64,000 nucleotides of DNA, taken from Terriglobia bacterium (GTDB lineage: Bacteria > Acidobacteriota > Terriglobia > UBA7540). Positions 2,393-54,336 of the stretch are shown one piece after another; the stretch's first letter is position 1, and each line of letters starts with the position of its first letter. A program made the translations under genes and the position numbers. The stretch lies in NCBI GenBank assembly GCA_046706005.1, contig JBJKPU010000132.1:1-64000 (forward strand), given 5' to 3'. The notes under the pieces were generated by a model. That model saw only the letters and a list, made by a program, of their open reading frames with translations, searched no databases and was not told the DNA's origin.

Positions 2393-2535
2393 GTTCCCGC
2401 CCAATAACGACAAATTCTGGGCAGATTATCTGTCAGCGTTGGACCTGTTGCAAGCGGGAATTTGCGCCCCACCGCCGCCGCAGGGGCGACTTATGAATCG
2501 CCCCTACGAATGCCACGGTTAGCACAAATCCCGCG

Positions 2536-9961: not shown

Positions 9962-10060
9962 TGCCCACCGGATGCGCAACGGCTTCCGAGGGCTTTGCCC
10001 ATCGGCTGTGGCCTGCGTAAAAGTCATGAGTCTTTTTCGCGCGGTTCGTCGTAGATCAGA

Positions 10061-10669
10061 TTGGAGCGTACAATGGACGGCGCGATTCACCTCTTCGCAA
10101 TCACGATGGAACCGGAAACCAGAGCAGTGGCTCGCGGCTTGCGCCGGCGCGATCCGGACTTGTTGGACGCCCTGATCTCGCATTACGAATATCGCCTCTA
10201 CCGATACCTGCTTTACCTGACCGGCAACGAGGATGCCGCCCGCGATCTCTTTCAGGAAACCTGGTTGCGCGTGCTGGCCCGCGGCCATCAGTACGACGGA
10301 GTGTCCCGTTTTGAGCCCTGGCTCTTCTCGATTGCGCGTCACCTGGTGATTGACGCAAGCCGCCGCAGAAAGATGGAAAGTCTGGATGAAATGCTCGACG
10401 CGTCTTCGGGAGCGGTTCAGGAGCCGCGCGCGCCGGAGGAAGCTTCGCCGCTCGCTGAATATTCGAACCGCGAGCTCGCAACCAGGCTGGGAGGAATTCT
10501 GCAACGTTTGTCGGCCGTTTACCGGGAAGTTCTGCTGCTGAGGTTTCAGGAAGACATGACGTTAAAAGAAATCGCCGGCGTCCTTCGGGTCCCGATTGCA
10601 ACCGTGAAGTCCCGGCTGTATCGCGGGCTGAGCGCCGCCCGGGATTTCATCGAGGAACAACAGTCATGA
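10061..10669 (+). CDS. ECF (sigma-70 family) RNA polymerase sigma factor
   Basis: Region 2 (DLFQETWLRVL) and region 4 HTH (LKEIAGVLRVPIATVKSRLYRG). Confidence 0.85.
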   Translation: MERTMDGAIHLFAITMEPETRAVARGLRRRDPDLLDALISHYEYRLYRYLLYLTGNEDAARDLFQETWLRVLARGHQYDGVSRFEPWLFSIARHLVIDASRRRKMESLDEMLDASSGAVQEPRAPEEASPLAEYSNRELATRLGGILQRLSAVYREVLLLRFQEDMTLKEIAGVLRVPIATVKSRLYRGLSAARDFIEEQQS

Positions 10670-11163
10670 AGAACCCAGATGATTCGCACGAACGCGCGCG
10701 GCGGCTGATCGATGCGGAACGCGTCGAAGGTCTTGCTCGCGAGGAAAGCCGCTGGCTTCAGGATCACCTTGCTGCTTGTGAAGACTGTGCCCGCCGGGCC
10801 GCGGGAACGGATGCGGCGATTCGCGCGCTGCGATCGATTTCCGTGGCCTTGCCGCCGGGACTTTCGGCCGTGACCAGGCAGCGAGTGCGCGTCCGGGCCC
10901 GAGAGCTGGCGCAACATCGAACCAAGAATCTGGTGTTGGCCGCCGCCTGCGCGCTCTCCTGGCTGGCCGGAGTGGCGAGCGCGCCTCTGGTGTGGAAGCT
11001 TTGCGCGTGGATTGGATCGCAGCTTGACCTTCCGCGCATCGTGTGGCAACTGGCGTTCTTTTTCTGGTGGGCTGTGCCTGCCGCGGCGGTCAGCGTTGTG
11101 ATTTTGCTGGCGAAGTCACGCAGCAATTACGGACTGAATTTTCCAGATTCCGACGGGTTCTGA
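10666..11163 (+). CDS. putative anti-sigma factor (zf-HC2-like, single TM)
   Basis: 4-bp overlap with the sigma gene (ATGA). HLAACEDCARR motif plus a TM segment. Confidence 0.6.
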   Translation: MKNPDDSHERARRLIDAERVEGLAREESRWLQDHLAACEDCARRAAGTDAAIRALRSISVALPPGLSAVTRQRVRVRARELAQHRTKNLVLAAACALSWLAGVASAPLVWKLCAWIGSQLDLPRIVWQLAFFFWWAVPAAAVSVVILLAKSRSNYGLNFPDSDGF

Positions 11164-11165
11164 AG

Positions 11166-11816
11166 ATGAAGCCGGCGGAAAGTAAGTCAGCAGAAGGTGA
11201 GGGTATGAAGATGGCGAACCAGGAAGGTTTTGCGGCAAGAATGAAAGAAAACCGGCGATTGCGCGCCGGTGAAAAGAAAACTTTCCGGAGCGAGCTGCGC
11301 GTTATTCCGGGCTGGCTGAGGAGTCTGGTTGCGGGCCTCTATCTGATTGCGCTCGCCTTCGTGGGGTATCTGGTCATTTCCAGACCGGGTGACGTGAAGA
11401 TGACCCCGGATCTGCTGGTCAACCAACCCATGATGTTAAAGCTGCTCGTCATGTTCGCCATCGTGACGGTGGTCGCCTTCTTTCTCGGAGGCTTGGTGTT
11501 GCTGTTCGGTTACGTCGGAGGCGACGCGAAGCGCCGCGGAATGATGGCGTGGCTTTGGGTGCTGGTGGCGATCTTCGTACCGTACCTGATCGGCGTGATT
11601 CTCTACTTTGTAGTGCGCGAGCCGCTGCCTTCGGAATGCCCCCAGTGCGGAACCACGGTGGCGGCGCAGTTCAATTTCTGCCCGAGTTGCAAGTTCAACC
11701 TGCGGCCCAACTGTCCGCAATGCCGGCTCGCGATTCGTCCCGGAGACACTTATTGCCCGCATTGCGGCCTCTCGCTTCCCCAGGACGCTCCCGCTCAGGC
11801 CGGCGCGAATGCGTAG
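11166..11816 (+). CDS. membrane protein with PLD-nuclease N-terminal-like (PLDc_N) segment and C-terminal double zinc ribbon
   Basis: GGDAKRRGMMAWLWVLVAIFVPYLIGVILYFVVR resembles PF13396. C-terminus CPQCG...CPSC...CPQC...CPHCG. The in-frame upstream part of table ORF 11043.. overlaps the anti-sigma gene and is rejected. Confidence 0.55.
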   Translation: MKPAESKSAEGEGMKMANQEGFAARMKENRRLRAGEKKTFRSELRVIPGWLRSLVAGLYLIALAFVGYLVISRPGDVKMTPDLLVNQPMMLKLLVMFAIVTVVAFFLGGLVLLFGYVGGDAKRRGMMAWLWVLVAIFVPYLIGVILYFVVREPLPSECPQCGTTVAAQFNFCPSCKFNLRPNCPQCRLAIRPGDTYCPHCGLSLPQDAPAQAGANA

Positions 11817-21090: not shown

Positions 21091-21166
21091 TGGTGGACCT
21101 GGAGGGGTTCGAACCCTCGACCTCATGACTGCCAGTCATGCGCGCTCCCAACTGCGCCACAGGCCC
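21091..21166 (-). tRNA. tRNA-Ala (anticodon GGC)
   Basis: The reverse complement folds as a cloverleaf: acceptor GGGCCTG/CAGGTCC with G3:U70, anticodon loop CTGGCAG (GGC), T-loop GGTTCGAACCC, encoded CCA. Confidence 0.85.
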
Positions 21167-36254: not shown

Positions 36255-36545
36255 ATGTTCTCCTGGGACGCTGCGAAGGCCCTGAGGAACTTGGAAAAGC
36301 ATGGCGTCCCTTTCGAGGAGGCAGCGACGGTTTTTGTCGATGCGGAGGCGCTGGATTGGGAGGACCTGGAGCACGGTGATCTGGAGCGCCGGTGGAAGCG
36401 TTTGGGGCGCGCCGCCCGTGGCCGCGTGCTCCTGGTTGTCTATACGTTAAGGAAGGTGAAGAATGGCACGGAAACGATACGCATTATCAGCGCGCGGCAA
36501 GCGAGCCGTAAAGAGCGCAAGGCTTATGCCGGACAGCAGGATTGA
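36255..36545 (+). CDS. brnT: BrnT-like (DUF497) type II toxin
   Basis: MFSWDAAKALRNLEKHGVPFEEAATVF matches the BrnT family start. Confidence 0.8.
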   Translation: MFSWDAAKALRNLEKHGVPFEEAATVFVDAEALDWEDLEHGDLERRWKRLGRAARGRVLLVVYTLRKVKNGTETIRIISARQASRKERKAYAGQQD

Positions 36546-36756
36546 TTTTTCCGACATTCCGGAAACGACGGACGCGGAACTCAAGCGCGCCCGGCGCGTG
36601 GGCCGGCCGAAAACCGGAGAGGCCAAGCAGTTGATTGCCATTCGAATCGCTCCGCGGTTGCTCGCCGAGTTGCGCCGCCAGGCGGCTAAACAATCAAAAC
36701 CCTACCAGACCCTGATTCACGAATTGCTGGAAAAGGCCGCCCGCCGCGCGGCATGA
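36527..36756 (+). CDS. brnA: BrnA-like antitoxin
   Basis: Overlaps the brnT 3' end. Typical BrnA motifs (IDFSDIPE...RxGRPK...KxxIxIRLxxxxLxxxK). Confidence 0.75.
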
Positions 36757-36767
36757 CGGTCGCACTT

Positions 36768-36861
36768 GTAGCGCAGGGTTTGTGCATTTCAAACTCTGCG
36801 GTTCGTTCCGGGATGACGGGGAAAAGACCGCAGAGTTTTCAGGAAGGAAACTCTGCGCTAC
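36768..36861. repeat. structured repeat, copy 1 (GTAGCGCAG...CTGCGCTAC termini, two internal hairpins)
   Basis: Hairpin CGCAGGGTTTG-TGCATTT-CAAACTCTGCG, then GCAGAGTTTTC-AGGAAG-GAAACTCTGC. Terminal inverted repeats. Starts 12 nt after the brnA stop. Confidence 0.7.
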
Positions 36862-36871
36862 ACGCTAAGTG

Positions 36872-37231
36872 TCAGCCGGATTTCACATCTTCGAACCCGC
36901 ACGAGGTCAGAAGGGCCCGGCGGACCTCGGACCATTTTGAATCAGGCAGAGTGCAAAGCGGCGATCCGATGCGATCGCGCCGGGCAAGAGATAAATGGTC
37001 GGAATTGAGAGCGCATACGACCGGCATTCCATCGTCCGGCGAAAGAGCCACCGCAGTCGCCAGGCCGCGGATGGTCCGTGTTACCGGGACTACGATGACC
37101 TCGTTGAGATGGTCCATGACTTCGTTGCGGGTCAGGATAAGGACTGGGCGGCGTTTATCGGGAAGCCGAAACGTGTACCAGCGAATCTCGCCACGCTTCA
37201 AGCGATCCCCTCCCAACCGCCGGAGTCCCAC
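36872..37231 (-). CDS. MazF/PemK-family toxin (endoribonuclease-type)
   Basis: LKRGEIRWYTFRLPDKRRPVLILTRNEV...VIVVPVT resembles the PemK/MazF fold. Confidence 0.7.
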   Translation of the reverse strand: MGLRRLGGDRLKRGEIRWYTFRLPDKRRPVLILTRNEVMDHLNEVIVVPVTRTIRGLATAVALSPDDGMPVVCALNSDHLSLARRDRIGSPLCTLPDSKWSEVRRALLTSCGFEDVKSG

Positions 37232-37407
37232 GCGAGAGGTTCGTCATCGCTTGAGAATTCTCCGTTTCGAGGAGGCAGGGCGCGGTAGGCATCGCTATCG
37301 GTCGCCGGAAGACGACTGGAGAGCAGCCGGAGCGGCCGGAGTTGCTCTTCGCGCGAAAGGTGATCGACCAGAAGTATAATCTCGTCTGCGCTCGGAGATT
37401 TTGGCAT
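37198..37407 (-). CDS. putative cognate antitoxin (about 70 aa), overlapping the mazF-like start
   Basis: MPKSPSADEIILLVDHLSREEQLRPLRLL... Start ATG at 37407. 34-nt overlap with the toxin ORF. No family assignment possible. Confidence 0.45.
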   Translation of the reverse strand: MPKSPSADEIILLVDHLSREEQLRPLRLLSSRLPATDSDAYRALPPRNGEFSSDDEPLAWDSGGWEGIA

Positions 37408-37455
37408 CGGAACGATTCTACCAGAAACCGGTTCGCTGGTTCTGATTTTCGAGGC

Positions 37456-37519
37456 GTAGCGCCCACCCCGCCATGCGGGGTGGGCAGGTGCCGACCCCGC
37501 CAAGCGGGATCGGCGCTAC
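37456..37519. repeat. short variant element with the same GTAGCGC...GCGCTAC termini, enclosing two GC-rich hairpins
   Basis: GCCCACCCCGC-cat-GCGGGGTGGGC and GCCGACCCCGC-caa-GCGGGATCGGC, bounded by GTAGCGC / GCGCTAC. Confidence 0.45.
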
Positions 37520-37542
37520 GGCCGGTTGACGTAACTACAGCA

Positions 37543-37552
37543 TGTAGCTACA
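37543..37552. promoter_or_regulatory. perfect 10-bp palindrome TGTAGCTACA in the promoter region of the antitoxin/mazF-like operon (candidate operator)
   Basis: Self-complementary. Lies upstream (minus-strand sense) of the antitoxin start at 37407. Confidence 0.3.
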
Positions 37553-37574
37553 TTGGGCGACGACAAATGAAGGG

Positions 37575-37666
37575 TGTAGCGCAGAGTTTGTGCATTTCAA
37601 ACTCTGCGGTTCGTTTCCGGGCACGGGAAAAAGCCGCAGAGTTTCCAGGAGCGAAACTCTACGCTA
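37575..37666. repeat. structured repeat, copy 2
   Basis: About 90% identical to copy 1. Same hairpins and termini (GTAGCGCAGAG...CTCTACGCTAC). Confidence 0.7.
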
Positions 37667-37680
37667 CCAGCTGGAAGCGC

Positions 37681-37920
37681 GTGGGCCGAACGCGCGAACG
37701 CCGGATTGATTTCTCCGACATCCCGGAAACGACGGACGTGGAGCTGAAGCGCGCCCGGCGCGTGGGCCGGCCGAAAACCGGAGAGGCCAAGCAACTGATC
37801 GCCATTCGAATCGCACCGCGATTGCTCGCCGAACTGCGCCGCCAGGCCGCCAGACAGTCGAAACCTTACCAGACCCTGATCCACGAAATGCTGGAAAAGG
37901 CCTTGCGCCGCGCGGCATGA
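37681..37920 (+). CDS. orphan second BrnA-like antitoxin copy (no adjacent brnT)
   Basis: The C-terminal 70 aa are near-identical to BrnA at 36527-36756. GTG start inferred. The table ORF 37342..37920 upstream part has no support. Confidence 0.5.
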   Translation: MGRTRERRIDFSDIPETTDVELKRARRVGRPKTGEAKQLIAIRIAPRLLAELRRQAARQSKPYQTLIHEMLEKALRRAA

Positions 37921-37956
37921 CGGTGTCGCCTTCTGACATCGAACTCTGTTTTTCTC

Positions 37957-38014
37957 TTGCCTCCTCCCTCATCCTAGTATATAACCAGTTATGTTCGAGG
38001 CAAGTGAACGCTAG
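37957..38014 (+). pseudogene. duplicated brnT promoter plus 7-codon brnT remnant (ATGTTCGAGGCAAGTGAACGCTAG = MFEASER*)
   Basis: CTTGCCTCCTCCCTCATCCTAGTATATAACCAGTTATGTTC resembles the brnT upstream sequence CTTGACCTGCCTCGCTAATTAGTGTATATACATAAATATGTTC. Confidence 0.4.
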
Positions 38015-38068
38015 TCCGTACGGCTGGCGGATGGATCGACGAGCACAGCAGCCGCGTTGGAGGGGGAT

Positions 38069-39193
38069 ATGCCCGACAATCCACAGCAGGGCCCGAGCGC
38101 GCCGCCCGCGAGAGGGGACACGCCTCGAAAGGCCAAGCGCCGCAAGCGACGGAGGCACGGCGCGTCCTCGGGCGCCCGCGCCGAAGGCGCAGGGGGTAGA
38201 TCGACCTTCGCGTTCCCGAAGCATGCTCTATCGGAGTGTCTAAGGATTCCGAAGGCCATCTTGGACCAGAACGCGGGGAGGCAGTGCCGAGACCGAGATG
38301 CGGCGAGGTTCGCGGGGCTCGGCTATACGGGGGAGGTGTCCACCGAGATCAGCTCAGCGCTGAAGTACGGGCTACTCGACCGCCCTGCGCCGGGGACTGT
38401 AAGGCCCACTGACCTAATCCGGAGGATTGTCAGGCCCCAGAAGCCGGACGATGTCACCGACGCCATGAGGGAGGCCGTGCTCCACGCTCCGTTGATCTCG
38501 GACGCTTACAAGCACTACCGGGGTGAGAACCTGCCCGACATTCCCTTTCTGGCTAACACGGCTCGGGACACGTTCAAGGTATCCCCGGAGAAAGTGGACG
38601 CCTTCGTCGGTGTGTTTATTAGAGCGCTTGGGGACGCAAAGCTTATCGAGGACGCCGGGGGGAAAAACCGCGTAGTGGACGTAACGCGGACTCAGGACGT
38701 CCAAGGGAGCAGCGCCTCCGCCGACGAGCACTTGAAGAAGGTCAGCAGGGGCATATCGGTGCAGTCCAGTGATACGTGCTTTGTGATGATGCCGTTCGCA
38801 GACCCTCTTGGTGGGTACTATCACACTATCTACGCGCCCGCGATAAAGAAGTCGGGGCTCACGCCCGTGCGTGCGGACACAGATATCTTTGGGACCGGTA
38901 AGATCATCGACCAGATCTGGACGGGTATCAACAAAGCGCGGGTTTTGGTGGCCGAGCTTACTGGGCGAAACCCGAACGTACTTTACGAACTAGGCCTCGC
39001 CCACGCCCTGCGGAAGCCCGTTGTGCTCGTGTCCTCGAACGAGCCTGACGTGCCATTCGACGTGCGACACGTTAGGGTTATCTACTACGACGTGAACGAT
39101 CCCTTTTGGGGGGACAAGCTCATAGCCAAGGTCGCTGAGAACATCGTTTCTGCACTGAAGAACCCGAAGGAGGCCATCCTCTTTAGTGACTGA
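38069..39193 (+). CDS. hypothetical protein with C-terminal nucleoside 2-deoxyribosyltransferase-like / SLOG-fold domain (catalytic Glu retained) and basic disordered N-terminus
   Basis: The C-terminal CFVMMPF...NPNVLYELGLAHALRKPVVLV...RVIYYD parallels the NDT/Rcl/MilB pattern (IYLAGPxF...DxGTxFELGxAxAxGKPV) with the nucleophile Glu in YELG. GGAGGGGG RBS before the ATG at 38069. Lys/Arg-rich N-terminal 45 aa. Confidence 0.6.
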   Translation: MPDNPQQGPSAPPARGDTPRKAKRRKRRRHGASSGARAEGAGGRSTFAFPKHALSECLRIPKAILDQNAGRQCRDRDAARFAGLGYTGEVSTEISSALKYGLLDRPAPGTVRPTDLIRRIVRPQKPDDVTDAMREAVLHAPLISDAYKHYRGENLPDIPFLANTARDTFKVSPEKVDAFVGVFIRALGDAKLIEDAGGKNRVVDVTRTQDVQGSSASADEHLKKVSRGISVQSSDTCFVMMPFADPLGGYYHTIYAPAIKKSGLTPVRADTDIFGTGKIIDQIWTGINKARVLVAELTGRNPNVLYELGLAHALRKPVVLVSSNEPDVPFDVRHVRVIYYDVNDPFWGDKLIAKVAENIVSALKNPKEAILFSD

Positions 39194-39240
39194 AACCGAC
39201 GCCGGCGGCTGGCTCAGCGGTTCCTGACGGCGAATTTGCA

Positions 39241-39265
39241 GGGGCAGGTCTGTAAACCTGCCCCT
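39241..39265 (+). terminator. GC-rich hairpin GGGGCAGGT-CTGTAA-ACCTGCCCC downstream of the NDT-like gene (no U-tract)
   Basis: Perfect 9-bp stem 48 nt after the stop codon. Confidence 0.3.
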
Positions 39266-39287
39266 ACGCAAGTCCAAGCGGCGGGTT

Positions 39288-39381
39288 GTGGTGCAGAGCT
39301 TTGGGGTTTCAAACTCCGCGGTTTGTTCCGGGATGGCGGGGAAGAAGCGGCAGAGTTTCCAGGAGTGAAACTCCTAGCTAC
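39288..39381. repeat. structured repeat, copy 3 (diverged)
   Basis: GTGGTGCAGAGCTTTGGGGTTTCAAACTCCGCGG...GCAGAGTTTCCAGGAGTGAAACTCCTAGCTAC. Same architecture with substitutions. Confidence 0.6.
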
Positions 39382-39630
39382 CTGCTGACCACGTTTGGAC
39401 AATTGAGGAGGTGCCTAGGTAGGCTGGCTTTTAGGCTGCAAGAAAGCCAAGAGGGGCTCTGACGCACAGAGCCCCTCTCAGACTAGAATATAATATGTTA
39501 GACTTACTTAGAATAGCTGAACAATAAGATGCACCGAAAATATACGCGGATAAGCCCTAGATGTCAAGTGTTTTCTTCCACTAGTCCAAGGTTCTTTCTC
39601 CAATCTCAAATAATCGGGTTTATTAGGCAT

Positions 39631-52974: not shown

Positions 52975-54336
52975 ATGAAACGGATTGGAATACTTATCGT
53001 GTCGTGCTTTTTGGCGGTGTCCGCCGTTGATGCTCAGGAGCCTCTTCAGACGCTGGCCTCCGTTGTGCGGAGGGTCGCGACGAGCGATCCCGGGATTCTG
53101 GCTCAAAGGTCCGCCGTCCAGGCGGCGCGCGCCGGCGCCCGCGAAGCTGAAACTCAGCGCTACCCGAAGCTCTTCGTGAGCATGAACGCCGGAGAAGGTA
53201 AGAGCGTTAACGATCTGGCCAACGTTCTCCTTACCGGTCTACAGGGTGCGACTGTCGCCAGTGCTTCTACGCGCTCGCGACTGTCCGATCTTTCAAACTC
53301 GCGGCCTTATTTCGTTCCCGGCGCCCGGCTCGAGGAGAATTTGTACGACGGCGGGCTCATTCGCGCGACGATTCAATCCGCCCGCCTAAGCGAAGACAAG
53401 ACAGTTTTGGGCGAGCAGAGGGCGGTCGAAGCGGAATCGTCCAGGACGGCCTCTTATTTCCTTGACCTGGCGCGAGGCCAAATCCTGGAAAAGGATTTGG
53501 GGAATTACCTTTCGGCCGCGCAAGTCGCTGCTAAAGCTGTTGCAGACCAGGCTCAGGCGGGAAGAGCGACCGAAGCGCAAGCGCTTGCCATGCAGGCGAA
53601 AGCCCAGGCCGCTGAAGCAGCAGTAGAGAATAATCGCTCCGACATGCGGTTATGGAGCAAACTCCTGCGCGAGTTGGCGGCGCTTCCGGGGTCGGCAACG
53701 TTCGATACCCGGCCAATCGAAAAATATCTCGAAGCTTTTCAGGTGACGCCGATCCCATCTGAGCCGGACCTCGACCAGAATATCGCCCTGAAGGAAGCCG
53801 GCCTTGACACCCGGATTCAGGAACAGGCGCTCCGCAAGGCGGAATCCCGGCGGCTGCCGCAGATTCAGTTGGTCGCACAGTACGGATTCCAGTTTTCCAA
53901 TCTGCTCTTTACGTATCGTCCGGGCTACAATGCCGGAGTCGAAGTGACGTATCCACTGTTCACCAGCGGTGAAACCAAGAGTAAGATTGTGCAGGAGCAA
54001 AGGACACTGGAGGCGGCGAATCTGCGGAAGAGGAAGACGCAGGAAACTCTGAGCGGCGAATATGCAAAGGTTCAGGAGGAAAACGGCAAGATTGCTCGCA
54101 ATCTGGATGCCGCGCGCGCTCAATTGGCCCAAGCAGTTGAAGTTTATCGGGTGGCGCGGCTCAAATATGACCAGGGCGTCGGTTCGCCTTCGGATTTGCT
54201 CGACGCCGCCGGATTGCTGCTGACCAGCCGCGAGCGCTGCTTGGATCTCTCCCGCTCCAGCCTGCTACTCTACTGGAGCGTTCTGCAGTCGCGCGGCGGG
54301 CTTGAGGCTGAACTGGAAAAGGGGGCGCTTCCGTAG
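52975..54336 (+). CDS. TolC-family outer-membrane efflux protein
   Basis: Signal peptide. Two repeat halves with TolC-like coiled coils. Confidence 0.8.
   Translation: MKRIGILIVSCFLAVSAVDAQEPLQTLASVVRRVATSDPGILAQRSAVQAARAGAREAETQRYPKLFVSMNAGEGKSVNDLANVLLTGLQGATVASASTRSRLSDLSNSRPYFVPGARLEENLYDGGLIRATIQSARLSEDKTVLGEQRAVEAESSRTASYFLDLARGQILEKDLGNYLSAAQVAAKAVADQAQAGRATEAQALAMQAKAQAAEAAVENNRSDMRLWSKLLRELAALPGSATFDTRPIEKYLEAFQVTPIPSEPDLDQNIALKEAGLDTRIQEQALRKAESRRLPQIQLVAQYGFQFSNLLFTYRPGYNAGVEVTYPLFTSGETKSKIVQEQRTLEAANLRKRKTQETLSGEYAKVQEENGKIARNLDAARAQLAQAVEVYRVARLKYDQGVGSPSDLLDAAGLLLTSRERCLDLSRSSLLLYWSVLQSRGGLEAELEKGALP

What the first reader, a model, noticed from the sequence alone, without database searches (positions are those of the whole stretch)
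36768..39381. Family of structured repeats with GTAGCGC...GCGCTAC termini (4 copies in 2.6 kb; the 3 full copies are about 92-94 nt)
Copies at 36768-36861, 37575-37666 and 39288-39381, plus a short variant at 37456-37519, share terminal inverted repeats. The full copies contain two internal hairpins built on the motif CAGAGTTT(G/C)/(C/G)AAACTCTG. Copy 3 carries substitutions that largely preserve pairing in the second hairpin. Each copy sits at a gene boundary: after the brnA stop, in the divergent promoter region between the antitoxin and brnA', and after the NDT-like gene. This could be a MITE/REP-like element or a small RNA or transcription-insulator family. Its clustering around TA genes is unusual.
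Basis: seen in the sequence. Interest (0 to 1): 0.55.

Follow-up and report, generated by a model that had tools for sequence, protein, structure and literature searches.

The report
REPIN mobile repeats in a Terriglobia genome
The repeats are real and belong to a known class of small bacterial mobile DNA (paired "REP" hairpins copied by a dedicated RAYT transposase), here as a previously undescribed family in soil Acidobacteria, so the finding is ordinary in kind.

Summary
The three 92-94 nt copies are real (nhmmer E about 1e-28). There are no other copies in the 64 kb window.

Each copy is a head-out dimer of two REP units. One unit is GTAG, then a 10-11 bp palindrome (CGCAGAGTTT, loop, AAACTCTGCG). 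A 24-26 nt spacer separates the two units. This is the REPIN architecture.

The family is dispersed.

- Copies are extragenic, have no target-site duplication and show no orientation bias.
- REP arms are 95-97% identical within a genome; loops and spacer are 55-60%.
- Compensatory changes support the two separate REP hairpins.
- In five metagenome contigs the same REP flanks a roughly 175 aa gene. That gene scores above cutoff for NCBIfam "REP-associated tyrosine transposase" (119 bits, cutoff 80).

The "short variant" is a dimer of a different REP family that shares the GTAGCGC head. Copy 3 is a decaying copy, not a compensated one. Linkage to toxin-antitoxin genes is not a property of the family.

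Verdict: a new member of a known kind, of low to moderate interest. A RAYT gene in the window's own genome was not found and could not be searched for.

The parts
36768..36861 (+). REPIN copy 1 (head-out dimer). Left REP 36768-36801, spacer 36802-36827, right REP (inverted) 36828-36861. It nearly fills the convergent gap between brnA and the PemK/MazF gene.
   Evidence: -50.3 kcal/mol, z -8.1; 11/11, 11/11 and 14/14 pairs
37576..37667 (+). REPIN copy 2. Left REP 37576-37609, spacer 37610-37633, right REP 37634-37667. It ends 8 nt before the duplicated brnA segment.
   Evidence: both REP hairpins with their T tracts were flagged as terminator-like
39288..39381 (+). REPIN copy 3, degenerate. The head is GTGGTGC, and 3-4 pairs are lost in each hairpin.
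   Evidence: (z -1.8)
37456..37519 (+). Head-out dimer of a different REP family: GTAGCGCCCACCCCGC-CAT-GCGGGGTGGGC, a 4-nt spacer, then an inverted partner. It shares only the GTAGCGC head.
   Evidence: I1; -51.2 kcal/mol, z -6.9
39240..39267 (-). Single GTAG-tagged hairpin of a third type (GTAGGGGCAGGT...ACCTGCCCC), just upstream of copy 3. A similar unit lies at 2482-2507(-).
36255..36756 (+). Context: brnT (36255-36545) and brnA (to 36756), a toxin-antitoxin pair.
   Evidence: BrnT_toxin E 3.4e-25; BrnA_antitoxin E 1.6e-7
36872..37410 (-). Context: PemK/MazF toxin (36872-37231) and an upstream small ORF that is the presumed antitoxin (37198-37410, no Pfam hit).
   Evidence: PemK_toxin E 6.4e-12
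37675..37924 (+). Context: an orphan second brnA copy, 86% identical to 36511-36760, with no brnT.
   Evidence: (D1)

Best explanation
The elements are REPINs. Each is a pair of inverted repetitive extragenic palindromes (REPs) of the GTAG-tagged superfamily, and they form a non-autonomous mobile DNA family in Terriglobia (Acidobacteriota).

**Shown here**
- One REP unit is an unpaired GTAG head followed by a 10-11 bp hairpin (CGCAGAGTTT, a 6-9 nt loop, AAACTCTGCG).
- Two units sit head-outward around a spacer of about 26 nt.
- The same REP, in the same head-out arrangement, flanks a roughly 175 aa HUH/Y1 gene classified as a REP-associated tyrosine transposase (RAYT). A REPIN therefore looks like a RAYT locus (REPtron) with the gene deleted.

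**Inferred from what is known of RAYT and IS200/IS605 enzymes**
- The RAYT, supplied in trans from a single locus, recognises the REP hairpin in single-stranded DNA and cleaves at the GTAG head.
- It moves or copies the dimer into extragenic sites without duplicating the target.
- This recognition would keep the head and stems nearly invariant while loops and spacer drift.

**Secondary effect in the host (inferred)**
- Each hairpin is followed inward by a T-rich tract. A REPIN between convergent genes, such as copy 1, may act as a two-way transcription stop or a 3'-end stabiliser.

Copy 3 is an old, decaying copy.
For: **Architecture**
- The GTAG head and arm columns are at least 90% conserved or invariant in 83 aligned copies, while loops and spacer vary.
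- GTAGCGC is followed by a hairpin in 199 of 344 occurrences, against 1 of 114-240 for control 7-mers.
- Head-out dimers dominate: 73 head-out, 7 tandem and 1 tail-out in the genome loci, with a median spacer of 27 nt.

**Dispersal**
- About 95 of the 118 genome loci carry the family, from 17 Terriglobia/Acidobacteria assemblies. One MAG supplies about 48 loci and another about 33.

**Mobility signature**
- There is no target-site duplication: 0-1 of 86 copies for k of 3 or more.
- Near-identical whole dimers (93-98%) occur with unrelated flanks in the same genome.
- Arms are 95-97% identical within a genome; loops and spacer are 55-60%.

**Location**
- 52 of 86 copies are intergenic even with a crude ORF caller, against 14.5% of random positions. 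The remaining copies fall in short spurious ORFs or in over-called ORF 5' ends.

**Covariation for the REP-level hairpins**
- Pair 88-103 is UA in 38 sequences and CG in 30. Pair 8-33 is AU in 74 and GC in 4. No shuffle out of 500 reached the observed covariation score.
- Sister subfamilies keep the head but have fully compensated stems, for example GTAGCGCGGACCT..AGGTCCGCGG.

**Cognate transposase**
- L235, L217, L224, L129 and L216 each carry a RAYT ORF with a family REP upstream of the open frame (21, 27, 64, 36 and 22 nt; in L235, 72 nt before the ATG). L235 and L217 also have an inverted REP 7 and 53 nt after the open frame, and L224 has same-strand REPs from 7 nt after it; the L129 and L216 contigs hold no downstream REP.
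- Three ORFs were scored (L235, L224, L129): Pfam Y1_Tnp 32-35 bits (cutoff 23); two of them (L235, L129): NCBIfam NF047646 REP_Tyr_transpos 118.8 and 110.2 bits (cutoff 80). L216 and L217 were not scored.
- The HUH (HWH) and YIHxNP motifs are conserved.
Against: - No RAYT gene lies in the 64 kb window or in the 118 genome loci. Only a C-terminal relic was seen, in L032. The link to a RAYT in the window's own genome is therefore by family, not shown directly.
- Transposition itself is not demonstrated. No clean empty site was recovered.
- Within a genome the spacers are much more diverse than in the textbook Pseudomonas REPINs.
- The minimum-free-energy RNA fold is one long hairpin rather than two side-by-side hairpins, although covariation favours the latter.
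- Only 3 copies were seen in this genome, all within 2.6 kb, so its genome-wide copy number is unknown.
Confidence: 0.85

Rival explanations
1. The elements are primarily host regulatory devices. They would be two-way intrinsic terminators or transcript-stabilising hairpins that spread because they are useful, and the RAYT association would be incidental.
For: - Each REP hairpin is followed, reading inward, by at least 5 T in 8 nt in 49/86 and 45/84 units, against 15/172 in the outside flanks.
- Both halves of copy 2 are called terminator-like.
- Copies 1 and 3 lie between convergent genes.
- REPs are reported to sit mostly downstream of genes (PMC3733652).
Against: - 8 of 40 classifiable copies lie between divergent genes, including copy 2.
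- The T and A tracts are also simply the symmetric extension of the dimer palindrome.
- The NYN gene next to copy 3 has its own canonical terminator at 39447-39481.
- The same REP flanks a transposase gene.
- No transcript data are available.
Confidence: 0.07
2. The element is a classical MITE: an internally deleted DDE-type insertion sequence with terminal inverted repeats, mobilised by a DDE transposase.
For: The element has 14-nt terminal inverted repeats, a small size of about 93 nt, many dispersed copies and an extragenic location.
Against: - There is no target-site duplication at any k of 3 or more.
- The termini begin with the REP hallmark GTAG and are part of hairpins.
- The full-length relative carries a Y1/HUH transposase, not a DDE enzyme.
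Confidence: 0.03
3. The element is a palindrome-associated derivative (PATE) of an ordinary multi-copy IS200/IS605 insertion sequence, rather than part of a REP/RAYT system.
For: The flanking ORFs hit Pfam Y1_Tnp, 'Transposase IS200 like'. The biochemistry would be the same: hairpin ends and no target duplication.
Against: - NCBIfam scores are 108-119 bits for REP_Tyr_transpos, against 17-35 bits for IS200 (below its cutoff of 55).
- The flanking hairpins are inverted copies of one REP with GTAG heads, rather than distinct left and right ends on one strand.
- No tnpB was seen.
Confidence: 0.04
4. The copies are a purely local duplication within the toxin-antitoxin island, with no wider family.
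For: All three window copies lie within 2.6 kb, next to a duplicated brnA segment.
Against: More than 100 full copies occur in 17 other assemblies, and in 120 metagenome contigs, with unrelated flanks.
Confidence: 0.01

Closest known systems
REPINs (REP doublets forming hairpins) with their RAYT transposases, as in Pseudomonas fluorescens SBW25 and E. coli (Bertels & Rainey 2011, PMC3116915; Quentin et al. 2018, PMC6006769)
   Same: - Two inverted REPs around a short spacer, roughly 90-100 nt in total.
- Folds as a hairpin, is extragenic and is present in many copies.
- Whole dimers are copied to new sites.
- The cognate Y1 transposase gene is flanked by the same REPs.
   Different: - The host phylum is Acidobacteriota (Terriglobia), and the REP sequence is new.
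- Loops and spacers are much more variable than the arms.
- RAYT copy number and vertical inheritance were not tested here.
GTAG-tagged REP superfamily, head-head (HH) dimers (Di Nocera et al. 2013, PMC3733652)
   Same: - An unpaired GTAG tag.
- Stem and loop lengths within the stated ranges (5-13 bp and 2-20 nt).
- HH dimers predominate, and the spacer lies in the 20-100 bp range.
- Mosaic clusters occur with other repeats, and there is an association with tyrosine transposases.
   Different: That survey listed GTAG REPs in Proteobacteria, Cyanobacteria, Chloroflexi and the PVC group. For Acidobacteria it reported only TIR-flanked 'TIRYT' transposases. Here a true GTAG REP family and a REP-flanked RAYT are seen in Terriglobia.
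E. coli BIMEs / REP elements
   Same: Alternating REP orientation, an extragenic position often at 3' ends of genes, and possible terminator or mRNA-stabiliser effects.
   Different: No sequence similarity. No evidence here for binding of IHF, gyrase or Pol I.
Correia/NEMIS, ERIC and RUP-type MITEs
   Same: Small, structured, dispersed intergenic repeats with inverted ends.
   Different: Those elements have target-site duplications and are tied to DDE transposition. This family has none.

Membership tests
GTAG-tagged REP | A conserved GTAG tetranucleotide at one end, outside the unit's own hairpin | tested here: met
   Columns G1 T2 A3 G4 are at least 90% conserved in 83 copies. GTAGCGC is followed by a hairpin in 199/344 cases, against about 1/200 for control 7-mers. 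Copy 3 has a degraded head, GTGG.
GTAG-tagged REP | A short imperfect palindrome (stem 5-13 bp, loop 2-20 nt) | tested here: met
   The stem is 10-11 bp and the loop 6-9 nt. 96.5% of cells are paired, with compensatory changes at pairs 88-103 and 8-33.
GTAG-tagged REP | Many dispersed copies per genome, in extragenic positions | tested here: met
   Met in relatives: about 48 and about 33 loci from two MAGs, which are lower bounds. Copies are extragenic. For the window's own genome only 64 kb is available, holding 3 copies.
REPIN | Two REPs in inverted orientation separated by a short spacer, able to fold as one hairpin | tested here: met
   There are 73 HH dimers against 7 HT and 1 TT, with a median spacer of 27 nt. 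The long-hairpin fold is -50 kcal/mol, z -8.
REPIN | The dimer, not the single REP, is the replicating unit | tested here: inconclusive
   Whole dimers that are 93-98% identical occur with unrelated flanks in the same MAG. However, 53 apparent singletons and highly diverse spacers are also seen.
REPIN/RAYT system | A cognate RAYT gene flanked by the same REPs (REPtron) | tested here: met
   L235, L217, L224, L129 and L216 each have a REP upstream of the RAYT ORF; L235 and L217 also have an inverted REP after it, L224 has same-strand REPs there, and L129 and L216 have none. NF047646 scores 119 (L235) and 110 (L129) bits against a cutoff of 80. This was not shown in the window's own genome.
REPIN/RAYT system | RAYT is single-copy and vertically inherited; REPIN mobility has been demonstrated | not testable with these tools
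   Complete genomes and population sequencing are needed. The only hint is that a contig encoding a 96%-identical MazF (L244) lacks copy 1 and carries other REPs at the same borders.
DDE-type MITE | Target-site duplication flanking the terminal inverted repeats | tested here: not met
   0, 0, 1, 0 and 0 of 86 copies for k = 3, 4, 5, 6 and 8, equal to the permuted control. There are no longer flank repeats apart from those of a second repeat family.
Known RNA families (Rfam 15) | A match at the gathering threshold | tested here: not met
   Only a tRNA at 21094-21166 was found in the window.
Intrinsic terminator | A GC-rich hairpin followed directly by a T run | tested here: inconclusive
   A T tract follows each REP hairpin on its inward side in about 55% of units. 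Copy 2 is flagged on both strands; copy 1 is not flagged. No transcript data are available.

The most novel reading that the evidence does not exclude
REP dimers may do more than litter the toxin-antitoxin island. Inverted GTAG REPs bracketing a small cassette (copy 1, then mazEF, then the second-family dimer and copy 2) have the same head-out geometry as the REPs around the RAYT gene. RAYT could therefore mobilise or exchange whole TA/defence cassettes as 'REPtron-like' composites. A weaker version is that the T-tract-bearing REPINs are retained as two-way terminators that insulate neighbouring TA modules.

Hints:
- Nine of ten GTAG hairpins in the window lie in the 2.6 kb island.
- Four of six distinct loci with MazF homologues have GTAG- or GTGG-tagged hairpins within about 300 nt of the cassette. 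In L244 the mazEF pair is bracketed by inverted GTAGAGACGC REPs.

Against:
- The family's neighbours are otherwise ordinary, diverse genes.
- Homology between mazEF loci stops at the coding region.
Probability: 0.1. Interest if true: 0.55.

Novelty: new member of a known kind. Interest (0 to 1): 0.3.

Why it matters
REPIN/RAYT systems have mostly been studied in Gammaproteobacteria. A 2013 survey of GTAG REPs did not list Acidobacteria and found only TIR-flanked tyrosine transposases there.

A well-defined GTAG REP family with sister subfamilies, and a REP-flanked RAYT, in Terriglobia extends the host range of this element class. It supplies a clean consensus for masking and annotating these genomes. 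It probably also contributes to the fragmentation of Terriglobia metagenome assemblies: one Logan contig ends exactly where copy 1 begins. It also offers a compact RAYT of about 175 aa and a REP pair for biochemical study.

It does not reveal a new kind of system.

Tried and rejected
1. **RAYT in the window or genome loci.** Only a C-terminal relic in L032 turned up.
2. **Protein search with the relic peptide.** No candidate was returned.
3. **Exact look-up of window proteins.** The MazF-like protein is not on record. BrnT is found on one Logan contig that stops just before copy 1.
4. **Empty-site search.** I blasted joined flanks against all loci. The only hits were through a second repeat family, and no clean empty site emerged.
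5. **An IS abutting REP ends.** The recurrent 'GCGCTTG|TATCTTGGTTTT' junction suggested one, but the neighbouring ORFs are ordinary genes (an iron-dependent repressor, an ABC ATPase, TonB). The idea was dropped and the junction remains unexplained.
6. **General linkage to TA genes.** Rejected from the REP side.
7. **Window 53150-53163.** This one-mismatch hit to the terminus motif lies in coding sequence without a hairpin and is a chance match.
8. **Non-family pattern hits.** About 22 loci from Bacteroidales, Ruminococcus, Streptomyces and others matched only my central-palindrome pattern and are not family members.
9. **Inflated tandem-dimer counts.** A first count of dimer types was inflated by a loose head pattern. 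I recounted with an exact GT[AG]G head.
Full report
**Observation**

The region holds three full copies of a 92-94 nt element, at 36768-36861, 37576-37667 and 39288-39381 (+ strand). A profile built from them finds nothing else in the 64 kb window. The terminal 14-mer is far over-represented, with 7 matches against 0.25 expected. Copies 1 and 2 fold at about -50 kcal/mol (z about -8); copy 3 reaches only -34.8 kcal/mol (z -1.8). Rfam has no match there.

- brnT/brnA, then copy 1.
- A convergent PemK/MazF toxin gene with an upstream small ORF.
- A 64-nt inverted-repeat element at 37456-37519.
- Copy 2, then an orphan brnA duplicate (86% identical to the first).
- A 378-aa protein with a weak nucleoside deoxyribosyltransferase match.
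- Copy 3, then a convergent NYN-domain gene.

**Anatomy**

Each copy reads: GTAG, CGCAGAGTTT, loop, AAACTCTGCG, G, a spacer of about 26 nt, C, CGCAGAGTTT, loop, AAACTCTGCG, CTAC. This is two copies of one unit in inverted orientation with the heads outward. The unit is a GTAG head followed by a hairpin with a 10-11 bp stem. GTAG plus a palindrome is the hallmark of repetitive extragenic palindromes (REPs), and head-out dimers are what Bertels and Rainey named REPINs (PMC3733652 read; PMC6006769).

**Is it a dispersed family?**

- The family profile matched about 95 of these, all labelled Terriglobia or Acidobacteria, from 17 assemblies.
- Two MAGs contributed about 48 and about 33 loci.
- The remaining 22 or so loci (Bacteroidales, Ruminococcus and others) matched only my pattern and are unrelated.
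- Eighty-six full copies with flanks were extracted.

**Properties of the family**

- *Conservation pattern.* In an alignment of 83 copies the head and the four arms are invariant or at least 90% conserved, while loops and spacer vary freely. Within single MAGs the arms are 95-97% identical, against 55-60% for loops plus spacer.
- *No target-site duplication.* For k of 3 or more, 0-1 of 86 copies have matching flanks, equal to a permuted control. No longer flank repeats exist except those caused by a second repeat family.
- *Extragenic location.* 52 of 86 copies are intergenic with a crude longest-ORF caller, against 14.5% of random positions. The 34 'inside' cases are short ORFs of at most 208 aa (including two known-spurious ORFs in the window) or the over-called 5' ends of long ORFs.
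- *No orientation bias.* Relative to the upstream gene, 23 copies are in the same direction and 26 opposite.
- *Dimer types.* Head-out dimers dominate (73 HH, 7 HT, 1 TT), with a median spacer of 27 nt.
- *Dimers copied whole.* Whole dimers that are 93-98% identical sit in unrelated flanks within one MAG.

**Structure and covariation**

All four arms share one sequence, so both the long nested hairpin and the two side-by-side hairpins pair at about 95%. The informative positions favour the side-by-side REP hairpins.
- Pair 88-103 is U-A in 38 sequences and C-G in 30.
- Pair 8-33 switches A-U to G-C in four copies within the left REP only.
- In the long-hairpin model the corresponding pair 26-88 is unpaired in 42 of 83 sequences.

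Beyond this family, the 7-mer GTAGCGC is followed by a hairpin in 199 of 344 occurrences, against about 1 in 200 for control 7-mers. Sister subfamilies keep the head and the closing GCGG but have entirely different, fully compensated stems, for example GTAGCGCGGACCT...AGGTCCGCGG. The 'short variant' at 37456-37519 belongs to this wider set. It is a head-out dimer of a different GC-rich REP with a 4-nt spacer.

**Cognate transposase**

None lies in the window or the genome loci, apart from a C-terminal relic in L032. Among the 120 metagenome contigs, five carry a roughly 175 aa ORF with the sequence pattern MSRLRRLVLSDRFFFVTC...LPDHWHAI...LWQGRFFDRALRTVKEYHETVEYIHxNPV...PEDWPWSS. All five have a family REP upstream of the open frame, and L235 and L217 also have an inverted REP after it:
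- L235: REP+ 10050-10082, ORF to 10679, REP- 10687-10719.
- L217: frameshifted ORF; REP+ 10703-10736, REP- 11334-11367.
- L224, L129 and L216: upstream REP present; L224 has same-strand REPs after the ORF, and L129 and L216 have no downstream REP on the contig.

Three of these proteins (L235, L224, L129) pass Pfam Y1_Tnp at 32-35 bits (cutoff 23), and two (L235, L129) pass NCBIfam NF047646 'REP-associated tyrosine transposase' at 118.8 and 110.2 bits (cutoff 80). They score only 17-18 bits for IS200. They align with conserved HUH and catalytic-tyrosine motifs.

The REP in L216 is 32 of 35 nt identical to the left REP of window copy 2. The gene locus is therefore a REPIN with the transposase gene in place of the spacer.

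A second RAYT type occurs in L121 and L151. In L151 it is flanked by its own, different REP (GTGGCGCATACAT...). This fits the rule of one RAYT per REP family.

**Mechanism**

The following are shown: the architecture, dispersal, absence of target duplication, the constraint on head and stems, and the REP-flanked RAYT.

The following are inferred from established RAYT and IS200/IS605 biochemistry (summarised in PMC3733652 and PMC6006769): the RAYT acts in trans on single-stranded REP hairpins, cleaves at GTAG, and moves or copies dimers.

A possible host-level effect is two-way transcription termination. A T-rich tract follows each hairpin inward in about 55% of units, against 9% outside, and copy 2 is flagged on both strands. 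This is untested.

**Toxin-antitoxin clustering**

In this window nine of ten GTAG-tagged hairpins lie in the 2.6 kb island.

From the REP side there is no general link:
- 120 flanking ORFs hit 243 Pfam families, with no TA family among the top 25.
- 1.34 Mb of REP-bearing loci contain no MazF or BrnA homologues and only two loci with BrnT.

From the TA side, four of six distinct loci with MazF homologues carry GTAG- or GTGG-tagged hairpins near the cassette. These belong to different REP families, and homology stops at the coding region. A contig encoding a 96%-identical MazF lacks copy 1 and has other REPs at the same borders, which points to REP turnover at permissive cassette borders. Whether REPs help move such cassettes remains a low-probability speculation.

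**Comparison and novelty**

The element meets the defining features of GTAG REPs and REPINs that could be tested. It fails the MITE test. The 2013 survey of GTAG REPs did not list Acidobacteria and reported only TIR-flanked tyrosine transposases there. Full-text searches for the sequence, or for REPs in Terriglobia, found nothing.

It is a new family of a known kind of element. Interest is low to moderate.

Noticed in passing
window 37675-37924 vs 36511-36760: There is a second brnA copy, 86% identical to the first, with no brnT partner. REPIN copy 2 ends 8 nt before the duplicated segment. A promoter-like match (TTGACG-17-TACATT) lies at 37526-37554, just upstream of copy 2.
   Followed up: partly
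window 39240-39267(-) and 2482-2507(-): Two single GTAG-tagged hairpins of a third type (GTAGGGGC...GCCCC). One sits between the NDT-like gene and copy 3. The other is the only REP-like unit outside the island.
   Followed up: no
window 39447-39481(-): A canonical terminator-like hairpin (15 bp stem plus a T run) follows the NYN gene, so copy 3 is not needed to terminate that gene.
   Followed up: no
L005, L015, L016, L021, L038, L051, L054, L065, L068, L072 (MAG JBOGJY): A second repeat of about 100 nt, with inverted ends AAGATTAGAAA...TTTCTAATCTT, sits directly next to many REPINs and forms BIME-like mosaics (15 hits of its core).
   Followed up: partly
L010:350, L021, L025, L032:4715, L054, L108:7606: In five of these six loci (all but L025) a REP ends in GCGCTTG followed by TATCTTGGTTTT instead of GCGCTAC; L025 carries the same CGCTTG|TATCTTGGTTTT junction on non-REP sequence. 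The neighbouring ORFs are ordinary genes, so this is not an obvious IS end. Unexplained.
   Followed up: partly
L235:9988-10789: The RAYT locus is bracketed by a 66-nt direct duplication of host sequence (98% identical) ending in ...CAAGTAG, and the left copy supplies the GTAG of the upstream REP. A REP also lies in frame inside the RAYT C-terminal region (10557-10589).
   Followed up: partly
L151:1462-2107 and L121: A second RAYT type (PDHFHLLI...WQRRF/Y...YMHxNPV). In L151 it is flanked on both sides by a different REP, GTGGCGCATACAT.... The same REP type appears near a mazEF homologue in L240 and L241.
   Followed up: partly
L048:663, L080:3267, L084:2555/2731, L107:7481, L109:6336/6864/6948: A sister REP subfamily with the same GTAGCGC head and GCGG close but a different, fully compensated stem (GGACCT/AGGTCC).
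   Followed up: partly
L119 (Logan SRR31309757 contig, 22.5 kb): A short-read assembly of the same locus ends inside brnA, just before REPIN copy 1. This is consistent with the repeat breaking assemblies.
   Followed up: no
L007, L012, L018, L033, L042, L055, L056, L064, L070 and others: Bacteroidales, Paludibacteraceae and Victivallales contigs contain an exact AAACTCYGCGG...CSGCAGAGTTT palindrome but do not match the family profile. This may be an unrelated palindromic repeat.
   Followed up: no
L048:737-2247: Three nearly identical REPINs in the same orientation separate small ORFs, one of which is an NTF2-fold immunity protein. This is another array of small accessory cassettes punctuated by REPINs.
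   Followed up: partly
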